A DNA stretch of 64,000 nt from Octopus vulgaris (lineage: Eukaryota), in NCBI GenBank assembly GCA_951406725.2, contig OX597828.1:28582001-28646000 (forward strand). The letters are read 5' to 3'. How positions within the stretch are numbered: position 1 is the stretch's first letter; every line of letters begins with the position of its first letter. A model generated the notes under the pieces. The model was not told the DNA's origin. It did not search any database and saw only the letters and a program-made list of their open reading frames with translations. This document shows, one piece after another, positions 1 through 24,720 of this stretch. The translations under genes and the position numbers were made by a program.

Positions 1-1
1 T

Positions 2-1666
2 GCCAGGGATAGCGCACGTTTGCGCTTCCCCGACACGTTTGTCCACGACCCGCGCCAACCTTTTTGCTAGCACCTTGGCCAGAATCTTTAACTCTGTGTT
101 CAACAGAGTTATGGGCCTGAAGTTCCCTATCTCGTCCCCCTTGTTCGGGTCCTTCCTGATCAACGTCACCGCCCCCCGGCTCGCAGACTTGGGAATTCTC
201 CCATTCTGCTGCCAGTTGGCGTAGACGCTAGCCAGCAGGTGCCCGAACAAGTCTGGCATACTTTTATAAAATTCATAGGGCAGACCATCGAGACCCGGCG
301 ACTTCTCCCCGCGGCACTTGCCCAACACCTCGATTACTTCCTCGGCTGTGATTGGCCCTTCACAGCACTCAGCCTCTTGTGTCGAGAGGCGCGGGCCACC
401 AGACAGGAAGTCCCTAAGGGCTTCAACATGATCCAGCGTCCCGCACCTCCCGAACAACTCGGCGAAGTGCTTGTGAAGTGCCTCACACATCTCATCCCGC
501 TTCTTGATCGTGCATCCGTTTTCATCAACAAGAGACCCAATTGTGGCATCGTTGCCACGCTGTGTTTCTATCGTACGGGCCCATCCGGCAACATTAATTC
601 CCTCACGGCCCAATGCTCGTACTTTAGCCCGAACTCTACATCCCTTATGTTTGGTTTTGAGGTGACGGTCTAATGCCGTTCTCGCCGCTAAAATGTGAGA
701 TGCAGAGCCCAACCTCAACGCCTCCTCTAAGTTCTTAACTAGTTGCCCTTCTATTCTAGCCCTAACTAGTCTTAGTTGTTTACTAAATCTAATGGACTCG
801 AATCGAATGGCTCTTTTGAGGGCGAACCACCACCGGTTATTAACCACGGCTCCGGTTAACGCCCTCTGCACTAACTCCTTAATCCGGCTACGGTATGCCT
901 CGCGAGTCAAAATAGACTTGTTCAGCTTCCAGTAGCCGGTTCCTATCTTAAGTGTGCTATCTATGTCCAGTCTACACGTGACCATTCTATGGTCAGTATA
1001 GGGCACCTGGACGAGCTGTGGACAACTAAAACTAGACTTATCTCTAGTTCTTATCACTATCCTGTCTAGATAAGACTTGAACCTTCCGTCGCCACTCATC
1101 CAGGTCCACTCTGGGACGTTCGGATGGTCAAGTCTGTAACGATCTGCCAGCTGAAACCGCTTAAGCAGATCCACGAGACGTGAGTTCACTTTCCTATAGA
1201 TCGAGCCAACGCTATCGATGTGTACGTCAACGATAGCATTAAAGTCCCCTAATATCACTAAAGTCTTCGACGTCACGAGAAAGCCCTCTAGGCGCCGATA
1301 AAAATCAGTTTGGAAACCTCTAGCACAAGGTGCATAGAGTCCGGTCAACCTGAAGGCCTTACTGCTGTATGTCACATCAAGGACGACCAGCCCATCTTCT
1401 GGGTCTACATAGACTGTACTTGTCTGCAGAGCCAAGTCTTTACGGATCAGTACCACTACACCCCCTCGCCCTCCGGTCTGGCCAGGAGACATGATTTTCT
1501 CGTAGCCATTCAGGAGAGGCGAGAAGGTTTGTAGGCTGTCCAGCTTGGTCTCTGTAGCAACCATCACATGTATATCATGTGATCTGAGGTCGTCGAGGAA
1601 ACAAGCCTGCTTCCACTTCGAACTCAGACCACACACATTTAAACAACCAAGGTTAAGAGAAGCCAT
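2..1666 (-). CDS. LINE ORF2 (APE endonuclease plus N-terminal RT), partial, apparently open to the window edge; absent from the ORF track, consistent with no in-window stop
   Basis: Manual translation from ATG 1666: MASLNLGCLNVCGL..VATETKL..GLYAP..ILGDFN..SYLDR..YTDH..GTGYWKLNKSIL..KSPGLDGLPYEFY..NFRPITLLNTELKILAKVLAKRL..EAQTCAIPG. These are APE catalytic motifs and L1/Tx1-type RT motifs in one frame. Confidence 0.93.
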   Translation of the reverse strand, partial: MASLNLGCLNVCGLSSKWKQACFLDDLRSHDIHVMVATETKLDSLQTFSPLLNGYEKIMSPGQTGGRGGVVVLIRKDLALQTSTVYVDPEDGLVVLDVTYSSKAFRLTGLYAPCARGFQTDFYRRLEGFLVTSKTLVILGDFNAIVDVHIDSVGSIYRKVNSRLVDLLKRFQLADRYRLDHPNVPEWTWMSGDGRFKSYLDRIVIRTRDKSSFSCPQLVQVPYTDHRMVTCRLDIDSTLKIGTGYWKLNKSILTREAYRSRIKELVQRALTGAVVNNRWWFALKRAIRFESIRFSKQLRLVRARIEGQLVKNLEEALRLGSASHILAARTALDRHLKTKHKGCRVRAKVRALGREGINVAGWARTIETQRGNDATIGSLVDENGCTIKKRDEMCEALHKHFAELFGRCGTLDHVEALRDFLSGGPRLSTQEAECCEGPITAEEVIEVLGKCRGEKSPGLDGLPYEFYKSMPDLFGHLLASVYANWQQNGRIPKSASRGAVTLIRKDPNKGDEIGNFRPITLLNTELKILAKVLAKRLARVVDKRVGEAQTCAIPG

Positions 1667-1683
1667 TACAAAAAGTAAAAGTT

Positions 1684-3120
1684 CTACTTACATTTCATTG
1701 GAAAGGTTGGGGCCGACCTCACCACACATTTGTGGACCCCTTCTTTCTCCTCCTTCTTCGGATAGTCCGGCAAGTTCGCCATATGCCGGATGGCGTTTGG
1801 TTGTCTGTCTTTTAATTGTTTGAACGTTGTTTCCGCAATCCACGCACATCTCTCGTTTCGATCTTTGTATTTGTTGTACAGTCTTGCTGACTGATGCGGA
1901 ACCACAATATCGTTTATGTATTTGTTTTGTGTGTCGAATTCAATTAATATGAGTTCATTTTTTTTGTCTTCTTTTTCTGGGCCAGCTGAGCGGGATTTTT
2001 TTTTTCGTGTCTGTGGTGTGTCTTTGTTTTTATTATTTTTTGTAGGGGATGTGGACGGGGATGATGCACGAATTCTTTTACGAACTGTTGTAAATCCCCC
2101 CTCTGATACCTCCATGGTATCGTCTGGGGTAGCAATAGTTTGTTCAGTAGGCGCCGCAGTTTTTAAGGGGGTGGGAGGTTTTAATAGTGTAGGGGTATGT
2201 GAGTGTGAGGGCTGGGTTTTTTCTTCAGTTTGTTTTGGGGTTGGCACCGTAACAGCAGGAGTGGGATTTTTTGTTTTTGTAGGGGTAGGTGAGTTTGCAA
2301 GGGTAGGGATTTTTTTATTATCTGAGGGGCCTGGTGTCTGCGGTTTCTTTTGCTTGTCTGGACAGTCTACACGAATGTGGCCCTTTTTGCCGCAGGCGTA
2401 ACAGGTGGGTTTTCGGCCTTCGACCTGTACCCCGAGGGCCACGTTCTCGCCCACGAGCACCCTCTCAAGAAGGAGCTGCAGGTCCTCCGGTGTTCCTTGA
2501 ATTATTATATTAATGTCTCGCCCAAGCCAATATAGAGGGGCAGAGCATGTTACTTGTAGTATTTTAATTTTGTCCGTCCTTTTATATAACAGGGCGGCCA
2601 CTACCTCTACCGGATCTGCTTCCGGCGGGGCTTCTGCAATCCTGACCCGGGACGTCCTGCGTCCCCTATAGCTTGGGAAAAGTACCACCTCCTTGGTTTT
2701 TAGGGGGTTCACAGAATGCCCGCGGGCCACCTCTTCCCCCGAGAAGCGGACATCCACAGTGCCATATGCCCGTCCCCTGGCGACGTACACAATGTCCTTC
2801 CAAATCGGGGACAGGCATTTCTCGATGGTGTTTTTTTCAAAGTGTTTGAACCTTCTGCTTTGTGGACAGAAGGTTTTAAACACTACGGTCCGCTTCTCGG
2901 TCTCCACGATACTGGCGGAGGGTGATATTTTAACATCACCACCCTCCTCTTTCATTCTTTTAAATAGCTCGACGAGCTGATTGACATTGATGTCAATGTT
3001 CTCGGTAGCCACTGCGGCTACCGCAGAAAATTTTTTACTACAGTTAACATTGCTCTCCTCAAGAGCACTATTTTCGTGAATAATCTCAACAGACGTTATT
3101 CTGTTGAAATTAGACAACAC
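1684..3120 (-). CDS. LINE ORF1 (gag-like nucleic-acid chaperone with CX2CX4HX4C knuckle and P/T/K-rich tail); start codon uncertain
   Basis: 478-aa ORF with CYACGKKGHIRVDC, directly upstream of ORF2; opens with GTG and the first ATG is about 56 codons in. Confidence 0.88.
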   Translation of the reverse strand: MLSNFNRITSVEIIHENSALEESNVNCSKKFSAVAAVATENIDINVNQLVELFKRMKEEGGDVKISPSASIVETEKRTVVFKTFCPQSRRFKHFEKNTIEKCLSPIWKDIVYVARGRAYGTVDVRFSGEEVARGHSVNPLKTKEVVLFPSYRGRRTSRVRIAEAPPEADPVEVVAALLYKRTDKIKILQVTCSAPLYWLGRDINIIIQGTPEDLQLLLERVLVGENVALGVQVEGRKPTCYACGKKGHIRVDCPDKQKKPQTPGPSDNKKIPTLANSPTPTKTKNPTPAVTVPTPKQTEEKTQPSHSHTPTLLKPPTPLKTAAPTEQTIATPDDTMEVSEGGFTTVRKRIRASSPSTSPTKNNKNKDTPQTRKKKSRSAGPEKEDKKNELILIEFDTQNKYINDIVVPHQSARLYNKYKDRNERCAWIAETTFKQLKDRQPNAIRHMANLPDYPKKEEKEGVHKCVVRSAPTFPMKCK

Positions 3121-3499
3121 AAAAATTACGAATATTGGTTTCCCACAAAACTGGGAAACCTATAGAAAGTTTTTCTTCCAAAGCAGTTCAATAAGTGGTA
3201 AAAAGCAGTTCAAAAAATTTCAATTCCCACCCTCATTCGGGGGGAGGGGCACGAAAATAGTCTGGCAAGACTATATATAGTCACGTAGATAAAAAAAGCC
3301 ACAATGGCTAACAGTTCAACAGTAACAAATTATCCAATTATTCCCCGGTAAAACCGGAGAACAAGACAGTTCAACAACGTTCAGTAGTAAAATTCAACAA
3401 TTAACAACACAGCAAAACTCTTACCGGGAAGAAAACGCGTCCAAACCGTAGTAAGGTAAGCAAAGTCACTCTTCAGTCAGTGAGGTTATCAAGCTACTT

Positions 3500-4970
3500 T
3501 ATTTCAATTATTTTGCCATAAAGGGGACACTACAAAACATGTGGAGACATATAACAATTAAGAATATGTAAAAATAAAATGATACTGTGAGTGACATGAA
3601 AATGAACGTGAGAAAATAAATTAAGTTTATGATAACATGCATGGTATCTGAAAATGAAATATGACGAGTGTGCTACTCACCCCACTCTGAGCAACACCAC
3701 TCGCTGCCTTTGAGTCTGAATTCTTCTCTAATCTCTGGTCTAGTCCTTCTTTTTCCACTCTCACTATCGCTTAAAGACAACATTCTTTCGCAACCTTTTT
3801 CACCGGGGGAGGGGTTTTCTAAATTCTGTGGTGTCTGCTCTTTTTTCTTTTTCTTTTTTTCTTGTGGGGAAAGGGAGTGGGTGGGTCTGGTGTCTGTATG
3901 GGGCGGGTGGGTCTGAGTGGTCTTGGGTGGGATGGAGTTGGACTGGGGTACCATTTCACACTCAGTGTTCTTTCTTTTCTTCCTCTTCTTACTTCTGCTC
4001 TCTGCTACTATCCATTCTTCCTCCTTTCGTCCGTCTTTGTCTTCGTCCTCTTTTTTCTTCTTTGTCTCCGCAACTGGTTCATCTATTTTTTCCTCTATCT
4101 TTTTCTTCTGTAGGGGACAGTGTGCTATAATGTGGCCTTTTTGGCCACATTTAAAGCACCGCGGGGTTCTGCCTTCTACCCATACTCTCAATACTATTTC
4201 TCCCATTGTCACCGTTTCCGCCAAATTTTCCAGCTCCTTCGCCTCCGCTTGTATGATCATTTCCAGTAATTTTCCTTTGTAGCTTCCTTCCTCTGTCTCT
4301 GTGGCTTGGAGGACAGTCACCTCCTCACTTCCAACGAGGACGGCTGCCGCAACCCAAGCCACTTTTATGTCAGGTGGAATTCCTTCTACCCTCACCTTAG
4401 AATTCTTTCTGCCAAGATAGGAGGGTAGAAGTACTAGTTCCTCAGTTTTTACAGTTGTACTTGCCAGCCTCTTTGCCTCCTCTTCTGTTTTAAACTGGAC
4501 AACCACCGTCCCATATCCGCTTCCTTTTGCTATATATGTTACTTCCTTCGAAAGCCCCTTGAGAGCTTTTTCTACTTTTTCCATCTTCATCTGCTCCACC
4601 CTCCTACTCTCCACTGAGTGCACCTTGTAGGTAATTGTCTTCTTTTCCATATTTGCCATAACCGTTTTCGGGGGTAATAACTTCACGTCACTTCCCACCT
4701 TCTGTGTCATCTTATACAGCTCCTTCAGTTCAGTTAGGTCTACTTCCTTTTTCTTTACCTCTGCCACGTCAGCAAAACTTTTTATTTTTTCCAAATGCTG
4801 GTCCATTCTGTTCACCGCCTTAACGAGCTCCTCCTCTGATGTGGACAGTTCGTACTCGCTAAGGTCCGAATACATTATTTTCCACTCGCCAACAAACCGC
4901 TGGCGAGCAGCTCAAAGGATTCTGTCCGCCTAGTCAAAACTCAACACAGTAAACAACTCGACGCATGCGC
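3500..4970 (-). mobile_element. ORF1-only non-autonomous retroelement (HAL1/half-L1-like), 1471 bp
   Basis: About 95-nt leader, single ORF1, AT-rich 3'UTR ending in AATAAA; flanked by GTTATCAAGCTACTT (3485-3499) and GTTAGCAAGCTACTT (4971-4985); no endonuclease or RT. Confidence 0.8.
3673..4875 (-). CDS. ORF1-like gag protein with CCHC zinc knuckle, homologous to 1684..3120
   Basis: 400-aa ATG-initiated ORF with CFKCGQKGHIIAHC. Aligns by eye with the neighbouring ORF1 (YIAKGSGYGTVVVQF/YVARGRAYGTVDVRF; LVLLPSYLGRKNSKVRV/VVLFPSYRGRRTSRVRI; VEGRTPRC/VEGRKPTC). Confidence 0.88.
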   Translation of the reverse strand: MYSDLSEYELSTSEEELVKAVNRMDQHLEKIKSFADVAEVKKKEVDLTELKELYKMTQKVGSDVKLLPPKTVMANMEKKTITYKVHSVESRRVEQMKMEKVEKALKGLSKEVTYIAKGSGYGTVVVQFKTEEEAKRLASTTVKTEELVLLPSYLGRKNSKVRVEGIPPDIKVAWVAAAVLVGSEEVTVLQATETEEGSYKGKLLEMIIQAEAKELENLAETVTMGEIVLRVWVEGRTPRCFKCGQKGHIIAHCPLQKKKIEEKIDEPVAETKKKKEDEDKDGRKEEEWIVAESRSKKRKKRKNTECEMVPQSNSIPPKTTQTHPPHTDTRPTHSLSPQEKKKKKKEQTPQNLENPSPGEKGCERMLSLSDSESGKRRTRPEIREEFRLKGSEWCCSEWGE

Positions 4971-4999
4971 GTTAGCAAGCTACTTACCACACAGCCACT

Positions 5000-5002
<3 letters not shown>
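4971..5002 (-). mobile_element. 5' fragment of tRNA-derived SINE family A, interrupted by the retroelement pair
   Basis: Minus strand AGGAGTGGCTGTGTGGTAAGTAGCTTGCTAAC is identical to the head of the intact copy at 24344; preceded by (TA)n as at 34573. Confidence 0.85.
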
Positions 5003-5848: not shown

Positions 5849-7069
5849 TGGTGTAGTGAATAAGCTCTCGTCTAAATAACGTGTAAAGGAAAATAACAAT
5901 GTCGTCTCATTTTAACTTATATATTTACCAAAATTACATGAAAATGTCTTGAAATACTAAAGAGTAAATTGATTCAATAAAATCACCATTGGCTTCAACC
6001 ACGACCTCCAGACAACATCGGAGTCTTCTGCAACTCTTCTGGGCGGTCTCCTATTTTAAGTTGGTGAATGCTGCCATAATCCTAGCCTTCACTTCATCTT
6101 CGGTAAGTAGTTTGCTTACGTACCACATGGTTCCGGGTTCAGTCCCACTGCGTGGCACCTTGGGCAAGTGTCTTCTACTATAGCCTCGGGCCGACCAAAG
6201 CCTTGTGAGTGGATTTGGTCGACGGAAACTGAAAGAAGCCCGTCGTATATATGTATATATGTATGTGTGTGTGTGTATGTTTGTCTGTGTTTGTCCCACC
6301 AACATCGCTTGACAACCGATGGTGGTGTTTTTACGTCCCAGTAACTTAGCGGTTCAGCCAAAGAGACCGATAGAATAAGTACTAGGCTTACAAAGAATAA
6401 GTCCTGGGGTCGATTTGCTCGACTAAAGGCGGTGCTCCAGCATGGCCGCAGTCAAATGACTGAAACACGTAAAAGAGTAGGAGTTTTGTTGGTCTCTCAC
6501 TCAACTGCGCCCCACACATATTAATCAAGGGGCTTGCAGTCTGGGGAGTTAGGTGGCCAGATGTTAGGGTTGATGTGGTCGCAGAAATTGTCTGACAGCC
6601 ATGACTAGGTTCTGCTTGTGTGGCATAGTGCAGAGTCCTGTTGCCAGACATAGCAGTCACCCTCTTGACCCAAGGCAGCACTACCTCCTCCGGGCACTTG
6701 ATGTAGGCCACCGTGTTGAACCTAAGGCCATGTGGGAAGATGAATGGAGGCATAACGTCGCCATCACTAGTGATCACTCCAAACACCATGATGTTGACTG
6801 GATGTTTGATTTTCATCACTCTCGATCCATGTCTTCCGATTGACACCCAAACACTCTGAAATGTCCGTATTGGAGCTTCCAGCGCGAATGCCAAGCAGAA
6901 TTGCATGTCGTTTCCAAATATCTGACAGAGTGAATTGCATCTTGGTGTTGTTTTACTCACAGACAGTGCCCAACTGATCCTACTATACTGTGTAGTCAAC
7001 AAAATCAAAAACAATGCGCATGAGCAAAATTAAAAATATAAGATGGCGATAATTTACCTATCGCACCCT
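5849..7069 (-). pseudogene. Decayed, internally deleted Tc1/mariner (maT/DD37D-like) transposon split by a SINE
   Basis: KHPVNIMVFGVITSDG..YVWQQDSA..WPPNSPDCKPLD*YVWG (6480-6820) and C-terminal DEVKARIMAAF..LEVVVEANG (5985-6100); stops and frameshifts; 36 residues between the 2nd and 3rd Asp in this copy; diverged TIR-like ends. Confidence 0.85.
6101..6479 (+). mobile_element. SINE family A, 5'-truncated, inserted in the mariner
   Basis: Near-identical to 24344-24720; ends in a TAAAAGAG-type tail. Confidence 0.9.
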
Positions 7070-24343: not shown

Positions 24344-24720
24344 GGCGCAGGAGTGGCTGTGTGGTAAGTAGCTTGCTAACCAACCTCATGGTTTCGGGTT
24401 CAGTCCCACTGCGTGGCATCTTGGGCAAGTATCTTCTGCTATAGACCCGGGCCGACCAATGCCTTGTGAGTGGATTTGGTAGACGGAAACTGAAAGAAGC
24501 CTGTCGTATATATGTATATATATATGTGTGTGTGTCTGTGTTTGTCCCCCTAGCATTGCTTGACAACCGATGCTGGTGTGTTTACGTCCCGGTCACTTAG
24601 CGGTTCTGCAAAAGAGACCGATAAAATAAGTACTGGGCTTACAAAGAATAAGCTCGACTAAAGGCGGTGTTCCAGCATGGCCGCAGTCAAATGACTGAAA
24701 CAAGTAAAAGAGTAAGAGTA
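24344..24720 (+). mobile_element. SINE family A, full length
   Basis: GGCGCAGGAGTGGCTGTGTGGTAAGTAGCTTGCTAACCAACC..GGTTCAGTCCC head, internal TA/TG linker, TAAAAGAG tail. Confidence 0.92.

What the first reader, a model, noticed from the sequence alone, without database searches (positions are those of the whole stretch)
3500..4970. Intact ORF1-only (half-L1-like) element whose ORF1 is deeply diverged from its neighbour's
Seen: a 400-aa uninterrupted ATG ORF with a CCHC knuckle, a short AT-rich 3'UTR whose AATAAA overlaps the junction, no poly(A), no ORF2 remnant, and its own TSD-like flanks. Protein similarity to the adjacent ORF1 is clear but low (roughly a third identical by eye), with no obvious nucleotide identity. 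Known: HAL1 elements are L1-derived non-autonomous retroposons that keep ORF1 only. Inference: this is a long-independent lineage that supplies its own RNP chaperone and borrows a site-specific ORF2 in trans. The alternative is a three-ORF LINE with duplicated gag.
Basis: partly seen in the sequence, partly recalled or inferred. Interest (0 to 1): 0.8.

Follow-up and report, generated by a model that had tools for sequence, protein, structure and literature searches.

The report
ORF1-only retroelement targeting an octopus SINE
A 1.5-kb element that carries only a predicted RNA-binding gene sits head-to-tail with a full LINE retrotransposon at one exact spot inside a common octopus-type SINE, and it likely borrows that LINE family's site-specific copying enzyme, so it would be a parasite of a parasite of a parasite.

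Summary
Observation confirmed: 3500-4970 (minus strand) holds a 95-nt leader, an intact 400-aa ORF1 (predicted two RRMs, then a CCHC knuckle), a 173-nt AT-rich tail, no poly(A) and no ORF2 trace. It is flanked by a 15-nt duplication (14/15). ORF1 is 38% identical to the neighbouring LINE's ORF1. Contigs from public runs show this target is used repeatedly: tail ends join the SINE body, the LINE's 5' part joins the SINE head without the element, and the element's 5' end also follows another tail. Other elements share its last ~25 nt. Depth suggests some 30-50 copies, with diverged subfamilies. Best reading (0.72): an ORF1-only non-autonomous family mobilised in trans by a SINE-targeting L1/Tx1-group LINE, forming tandem arrays. 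Not shown: a contig spanning a solo copy, selection on ORF1, transcription, the Tx1 clade, long independence. It works like HAL1 and HeT-A but is not a HAL1. I found no SINE-targeting LINE with such a partner in the papers searched; Repbase was not available.

The parts
4986..5001 (-). 5' head of a tRNA-type SINE (holds the A-box-like motif); the SINE's first ~5 bases are replaced by a (TA)n run
   Evidence: 4971-5002 matches the SINE copy at 24344 over 32 of 32 nt; box positions
4971..4985 (-). 5' copy of the 15-nt target-site duplication = SINE positions 23-37, between A box (11-21) and B box (54-63)
3500..4970 (-). unit A: ORF1-only element, 1471 nt
   Evidence: bounded by the two duplication copies; its 5' end recurs next to the target in contigs of 3 runs
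4876..4970 (-). 95-nt 5' leader of unit A; shares a weak motif with the LINE 5'UTR
   Evidence: local score reached by 19 of 1000 shuffles
3673..4875 (-). ORF1a, 400 aa, intact: helical N-terminus, two predicted RRMs, CCHC knuckle, charged low-complexity tail
4177..4638 (-). predicted tandem RRM-like domains (aa 80-153 and 157-233)
   Evidence: AlphaFold2 secondary structure, mean pLDDT 51; the Foldseek rows shown are almost all tandem-RRM proteins, best E 7e-5; Pfam RRM_3 E 0.006
4114..4161 (-). CCHC zinc knuckle (aa 239-254)
3500..3672 (-). 173-nt AT-rich 3'UTR without poly(A)
3500..3524 (-). terminal ~25-nt tail shared with at least one other element; likely ORF2 recognition signal
   Evidence: loose ends behind 3524 in 13, 18 and 15 contigs; similar tail on an internally deleted LINE copy (table 5c)
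3485..3499 (-). second copy of the target duplication (one mismatch), between unit A and the LINE
3097..3484 (-). 5'UTR of the neighbouring LINE
   Evidence: consensus-depth contigs run up to the duplication (table 8)
1684..3096 (-). ORF1b of the LINE (RRM/CCHC type). Most copies have an in-frame ATG at 3096; this copy reads ACG there, first ATG at 2955
   Evidence: (site 3095)
2..1666 (-). ORF2 of the LINE: APE endonuclease and start of reverse transcriptase, L1 group; runs off the window

Best explanation
Unit A is a 1.47-kb multi-copy element with one intact ORF1 gene and no ORF2, inserted with a 15-nt duplication into the head of a tRNA-type SINE next to a full LINE, and it is likely copied in trans by the ORF2 of that SINE-targeting LINE family. 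Mechanism. (1) Shown: element and LINE use the same SINE site, positions 23-37, in the SINE's orientation. (2) Inferred: A is transcribed from its short leader or by read-through and translates ORF1a, a predicted RRM-RRM-CCHC protein that would package its own RNA. (3) Inferred: ORF2 binds the shared terminal ~25 nt, which in several elements holds a small TGCC-TTYAT-GGCA hairpin. (4) Inferred from the duplication: the endonuclease nicks the antisense strand at a T/A step just after the A box and primes reverse transcription there; the second nick 15 nt away makes the duplication. (5) Inferred: each insertion leaves head plus target intact at its 5' junction, so later insertions stack upstream as head-to-tail arrays; here A probably arrived after the LINE. 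The insertion separates A box from B box and would silence that SINE copy; the very abundant SINE acts as a safe haven.
For: Target is a SINE head: 32 of 32 nt match; the 6 other places in the window with the 15-mer (<=2 mismatches) all continue into SINE body. (91, 92 and 63 contigs laid in runs X4, X3, X10): tail plus target joins SINE body in 16, 12 and 10 contigs; tail plus target joins A's own 5' end in 3, 1 and 3 contigs, so A also stands downstream of a tail; a different upstream sequence shares the last ~25 nt in 13, 18 and 15 contigs. LINE 5' end contigs come in two forms with 2 and 3 differences (depth 900/1419 in X4, 255/546 in X3), as expected if copies carry the two SINE target variants seen in the window (my reading, letters not shown). 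The depth-546 contig in X3 stops matching at the last base of the duplication with 6 letters unaligned. LINE 5' region joins the SINE head without A (joint 3358 to 4974) in 4 of 4 runs. Depth in A's ORF is about 33-53 times single-locus depth, in its 3'UTR 16-52 times, so there is no clear excess of ORF1a copies that run on into something else (rough). Multi-copy A variants 7-8% diverged exist (table 8: 17 of 252 letters at depth 400 in X4, 15 of 192 at depth 211 in X2). Endonuclease aligns to L1 EN with catalytic motifs in place.
Against: No listed contig spans A-specific sequence through the target into SINE body; the tail-to-body contigs could all belong to the other elements with the same tail. 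A and the LINE 5' part have similar depth (33-53 against 45-78 times), which a compound unit would also give. The 3358 joint has only 19-20 letters on its short side and single-locus depth. The LINE's own 3' end is outside the window, so tail sharing with this LINE rests on one contig of a deleted copy. This copy of A lacks the full hairpin (0 matches), although other A copies seem to carry it (loose ends before 3517). No dN/dS and no RNA evidence. Tables were cut: 18 of 56 loose-end rows and 24 of 246 pieces shown. The tool warns that contig depth is no copy number.
Confidence: 0.72

Rival explanations
1. Three-ORF compound LINE: A plus the LINE move as one transcript with two ORF1 genes; the internal 15-mer is a fixed relic of an old tandem insertion, and copies without A are 5' truncations.
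For: Similar depth of A and LINE 5' part; same orientation; joints of the LINE 5'UTR to the SINE head could be truncations.
Against: High-depth LINE 5' ends appear to carry the SINE's own two target variants, not this copy's variant; one stops matching exactly at the duplication's end; A's 5' end also follows a tail. A ends in the same tail as other elements, which is a terminal signal, not a spacer. Truncation would not stop repeatedly at the exact relic site.
Confidence: 0.1
2. A is a recent internal-deletion product of a sister autonomous family (not the neighbour) and rides passively; its ORF1 is intact only because it is young and is not needed.
For: Four database proteins are closer to ORF1a than ORF1b is (53-82% against 37%), so sister families exist. 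ORF1a is shorter at the C-terminus than ORF1b. The neighbour's frames are also open despite mostly non-synonymous private changes, so an open frame alone does not show selection. Deleted LINE copies exist.
Against: No sign of an abundant parent at >=85% identity (depth flat from ORF into 3'UTR in 3 of 4 runs); multi-copy subfamilies 7-8% apart; relatives at 73-82% share the same N-terminus or low-complexity tail.
Confidence: 0.13
3. Copies of A multiplied by DNA-level duplication or by hitchhiking inside a SINE transcript, not by their own targeted retrotransposition.
For: A lies inside a SINE in the same orientation; repeat-rich region.
Against: The insertion separates A and B boxes by 1.5 kb or more; varied junction partners; only 1 of 18 SINE-like hits in the window is cut at this site.
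Confidence: 0.05

Closest known systems
HAL1 (half-L1) of mammals (PMC5753468, PMC5786205; passages read)
   Same: Non-autonomous, ORF1 only, L1-group origin, depends on another element's ORF2.
   Different: ORF1 here is RRM+CCHC (type I), not Transposase_22; no poly(A); fixed insertion site in a SINE; mollusc host.
HeT-A and other ORF1-only telomeric elements of Drosophila (PMC13534243, PMC5786205; passages read)
   Same: ORF1-only element that shares a special target with an autonomous partner and forms head-to-tail arrays; ORF1 distant from the partner's.
   Different: Jockey clade and chromosome ends there; L1/Tx1 group, internal SINE target and 15-nt duplications here; no known host benefit.
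Tx1-Mar and SINEU-3 of crocodilians; Xenopus Tx1; Keno, Kibi, Koshi (PMC4494074; passages and section 15 read)
   Same: Tx1-type LINE that targets another mobile element, with a non-autonomous partner using the same site, 15-nt duplication and tandem copies that sandwich a duplication.
   Different: Targets listed there are DNA transposons, LTR elements, U2, U5, 5S, satellites and microsatellites, not a SINE head; the partner is a non-coding SINE, here it encodes ORF1.
Ag-Sponge (CR1-derived, ORF1 only; named in PMC5786205)
   Same: ORF1-present non-autonomous LINE in an invertebrate.
   Different: CR1 clade; no shared sequence target stated in the passage read.

Membership tests
HAL1 | encodes ORF1 only | tested here: met
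HAL1 | derived from mammalian-type L1 (coiled coil, single RRM, CTD; Transposase_22) | tested here: not met
   no Transposase_22 hit; zf-CCHC and RRM; two RRMs predicted; ORF1 types from PMC5203782
HAL1 | 3' poly(A) tail (recalled; the primary HAL1 paper was not held) | tested here: not met
   sequence
HAL1 | amplified as a unit with target-site duplications | tested here: inconclusive
   one 14/15 duplication; multi-copy depth and recurring 5' junction; no solo copy seen end to end
Tx1 clade (partner LINE) | RT phylogeny groups with Tx1 | not testable with these tools
   RT mostly outside the window; no named Tx1 references; best solved relative is human L1 ORF2
Tx1 clade (partner LINE) | APE endonuclease plus RT of L1 group | tested here: met
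   full-length homologues carry Exo_endo_phos, RVT_1 and PF13966
Tx1 clade (partner LINE) | RRM/CCHC-type ORF1 | tested here: met
   PMC5203782 links this type to Tx1 in non-mammalian animals
Tx1 clade (partner LINE) | sequence-specific insertion | tested here: met
   repeated junctions at one SINE site; share of all copies at this site not measured
HeT-A-like ORF1-only elements | Jockey clade, telomeric insertion | tested here: not met
   internal SINE site with duplication; L1-group neighbour
tRNA-derived SINE (target) | A and B boxes, short, dispersed, high copy | tested here: met
   18 hits in 64 kb; box-like motifs (patterns recalled). Source tRNA and SINE family name not identified; ARAGORN found no tRNA

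The most novel reading that the evidence does not exclude
Octopuses carry a three-tier system not yet described: a Tx1-type LINE lineage whose endonuclease has specialised on the promoter head of the host's dominant SINE, and an old, protein-coding ORF1-only family that keeps its own selected ORF1, shares the LINE's 3' signal and stacks with it in HeT-A/TART-like arrays. It would be an independent, non-telomeric case linking strict targeting to loss of ORF2.
Probability: 0.4. Interest if true: 0.68.

Novelty: new variant of a known kind. Interest (0 to 1): 0.52.

Why it matters
ORF1-only LINE derivatives are known from three clades (L1, Jockey, CR1; PMC5786205), and why they keep ORF1 is open. 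In Drosophila ORF2 loss is common in telomere-targeted elements but reportedly not in untargeted Jockey elements (PMC13534243). A targeted, array-forming pair in an unrelated clade and host gives an independent test of that link. A LINE that cuts a SINE between its promoter boxes would add a target class to those listed for Tx1 (PMC4494074), would inactivate each SINE copy it hits, and offers a compact APE-type system with a defined 15-nt site and a ~25-nt RNA signal for trans-mobilisation assays.

Tried and rejected
No whole genome is held for this window, so copies could not be counted directly. Rfam gave only microsatellite noise below gathering scores; ARAGORN 0 genes: no snRNA or tRNA gene target. 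Metagenome scans for ORF1a and for the tail-target junction found nothing. dN/dS could not be computed: only 40 of 532 variant sites were shown, 4 of them in ORF1a. Homology between the C-termini of ORF1a, ORF1b and P0003 was not above shuffles, so an 'ORF1a lost a shared C-terminal domain' reading is unsupported. A coiled-coil period in aa 14-41 is only suggestive (73 of 2000 shuffles). The endonuclease hairpin did not separate L1 from Tx1. ESM Atlas gave unnamed zf-CCHC/RRM clusters at 0.90-0.92 and ZCCHC3-like at 0.88, a lead only. The bacterial promoter scan is irrelevant here. No complex prediction was sent. A splice-donor-like motif at the end of ORF1a was noted, not tested. Not in print: searches listed no report of this family or of a SINE-head-targeting Tx1; Repbase/Dfam, the primary HAL1 paper and the O. 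vulgaris repeat library (80 L1-Tx1 families) could not be seen and may hold it.

Full report
Anatomy. On the minus strand the window reads: (TA)n, 16 nt of SINE head (5001-4986), a 15-mer (4985-4971), unit A (4970-3500), the 15-mer again with one mismatch (3499-3485), and a LINE that runs off the window (5'UTR, ORF1b to 1684, ORF2 from 1666). Unit A has a 95-nt leader, a 400-aa ORF and a 173-nt, 72% AT 3'UTR with no poly(A). tblastn with 7 ORF2 sequences found no remnant. A 14/15 repeat this close has a chance of about 2.5e-4. The host is probably an octopus: the only named homologues are from Octopus sinensis and O. bimaculoides; this is an inference.

The protein. ORF1a has a CCHC knuckle just under the Pfam cut-off and a weak RRM hit. 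A low-confidence model (mean pLDDT 51, 6 sequences) shows two beta-alpha-beta-beta-alpha-beta units at aa 80-153 and 157-233; Foldseek gave 34 matches at E<=0.001, and the rows shown are almost all tandem-RRM proteins, with low TM-scores (0.2-0.4). RRM plus CCHC is type I ORF1, linked to Tx1 in non-mammalian animals (PMC5203782, passages). ORF1a is 38-39% identical to ORF1b over 201-232 aa and closer to four database proteins (82, 73, 56, 53% over 158, 102, 122, 144 aligned residues). So A did not come from its neighbour, but the time since it lost ORF2 is unknown. The neighbour's ORF2 has an L1-group endonuclease and the start of RT; L1 versus Tx1 clade could not be tested.

The target. The 32 nt at 4971-5002 match a SINE copy at 24344 exactly. 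The first 137 nt of that copy give 18 hits in the window; the 15-mer occurs at 6 other places with up to 2 mismatches, and all 6 continue into SINE body. The 15-mer is SINE positions 23-37, between A-box-like (11-21) and B-box-like (54-63) motifs (patterns recalled). The window's SINEs show two variants of the site, ending CTAAC or CTTAC.

Other copies. With no genome held I laid contigs of public runs. (X1-X4, 1-5001): scaled by single-locus depth, A's ORF is at 33-53 times, its 3'UTR at 16-52, the LINE's 5' part at 45-78 and ORF2 at 127-375 (single sites picked from the 40 of 532 rows shown; the tool warns that depth is no copy number). Multi-copy A variants differ by 7-8%. A joint from LINE position 3358 to the SINE head appears in 4 of 4 runs at single-locus depth with 19-20 letters on the short side; 15 of 160 joints were shown. 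One X4 contig joins the LINE's 5' part to a tail that resembles A's. (3415-3590; 91, 92, 63 and 0 contigs laid in X4, X3, X10, X11; 18 of 56 loose-end rows shown): tail plus target continues into SINE body in 16, 12, 10 contigs and into A's own 5' end in 3, 1, 3; a different sequence shares the last ~25 nt in 13, 18, 15; other A copies carry about 13 more letters that complete a TGCC-TTTAT-GGCA hairpin (3 contigs each in X4 and X10), which this copy lacks. LINE 5' end contigs differ from the window by 2 or 3 letters, matching one family difference plus the two SINE variants (inferred). In X3 the depth-546 contig stops matching at 3499. No listed contig bridges the A-LINE junction or a solo A with 31 letters on each side; contigs break at the shared target.

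Mechanism. Shown: shared site, duplication, multiple copies, mixed junction partners, shared tail. Inferred: ORF2 of the LINE family binds the tail (as stringent L2-type zebrafish LINEs bind 3' stem-loops, PMC4176376, passages; analogy only), nicks the antisense strand at a T/A step after the A box and primes reverse transcription; the 5' junction keeps head plus target, so later copies stack upstream. A therefore probably came after the LINE at this locus; the third duplication copy is outside the window. ORF1a would package A's RNA; neither expression nor selection was tested. The neighbour copy has ACG where most copies have an in-frame ATG, and 22 of 26 listed majority differences in its ORFs are non-synonymous when scored one at a time, so it is a decaying copy and not a proven donor.

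Rivals. Compound three-ORF LINE (0.10): fits the similar depths, but not the SINE-variant junctions or the tail-to-A order. Young passive deletion product of a sister family (0.13): sister families exist, but no abundant close parent is evident and subfamilies have diverged. DNA-level or SINE-borne amplification (0.05).

Comparison. ORF1-present non-autonomous LINEs are known: HAL1 (L1), HeT-A (Jockey), Ag-Sponge (CR1) (PMC5786205, PMC5753468, passages). This element works like them but fails HAL1 membership on ORF1 type and poly(A). Tx1 families that target other mobile elements, with a non-autonomous partner and tandem copies around a 15-nt duplication, are known from crocodilians (PMC4494074, passages and section 15); a SINE head is not among the targets listed there. 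The O. vulgaris repeat paper (PMC13282606: first third of the text, term search, supplement search) counts 13 recently active L1-Tx1 families but has no mention of ORF1, HAL1 or targets. PMC9115989, PMC4758252 and PMC3706591 (passages) added nothing on this family. Ten paper searches listed no description; Repbase could not be checked. Earlier scan notes show ORF1-only elements in at least 6 other genomes (unchecked), so the kind is not rare; none was like this sequence.

Verdict. Real; new variant of a known kind; interest 0.52. The added value lies in the SINE target and the shared-site partnership, not in the ORF1-only layout alone.

Noticed in passing
window 3094-3096 (-): The neighbouring LINE copy reads ACG where most copies in 4 of 4 runs have an in-frame ATG; the family's ORF1b is about 45 aa longer than the 423-aa ORF listed and its N-terminus aligns with ORF1a's.
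   Followed up: yes
window 3500-3524, contigs: At least one more element with an unrelated upstream sequence ends in the same ~25-nt tail at the same target; it may be the autonomous LINE's 3' end or a third family.
   Followed up: partly
window 2939 and 3506, table 5c (X4): One contig joins the LINE's 5' part to a tail plus target: an internally deleted, probably non-coding derivative.
   Followed up: no
window 3516-3517: Other copies of A carry about 13 more letters here that complete a small hairpin; this copy lacks them, possibly a deletion between short direct repeats.
   Followed up: partly
window 3675-3682 (-): ORF1a ends on a splice-donor-like motif; in tandem arrays it could splice into downstream sequence.
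   Followed up: no
window 3458-3470 (-): Near the LINE's 5' end lies a short stretch that resembles the SINE target again, perhaps a relic of an older junction.
   Followed up: no
window 5538-60631: 17 further hits to the tRNA-type SINE in 64 kb, 71-100% identical, several incomplete; family name not identified.
   Followed up: partly
window 6388-6906 (-): A 172-aa frame whose sequence looks like a decayed Tc1/mariner transposase fragment (recalled resemblance, not tested).
   Followed up: no
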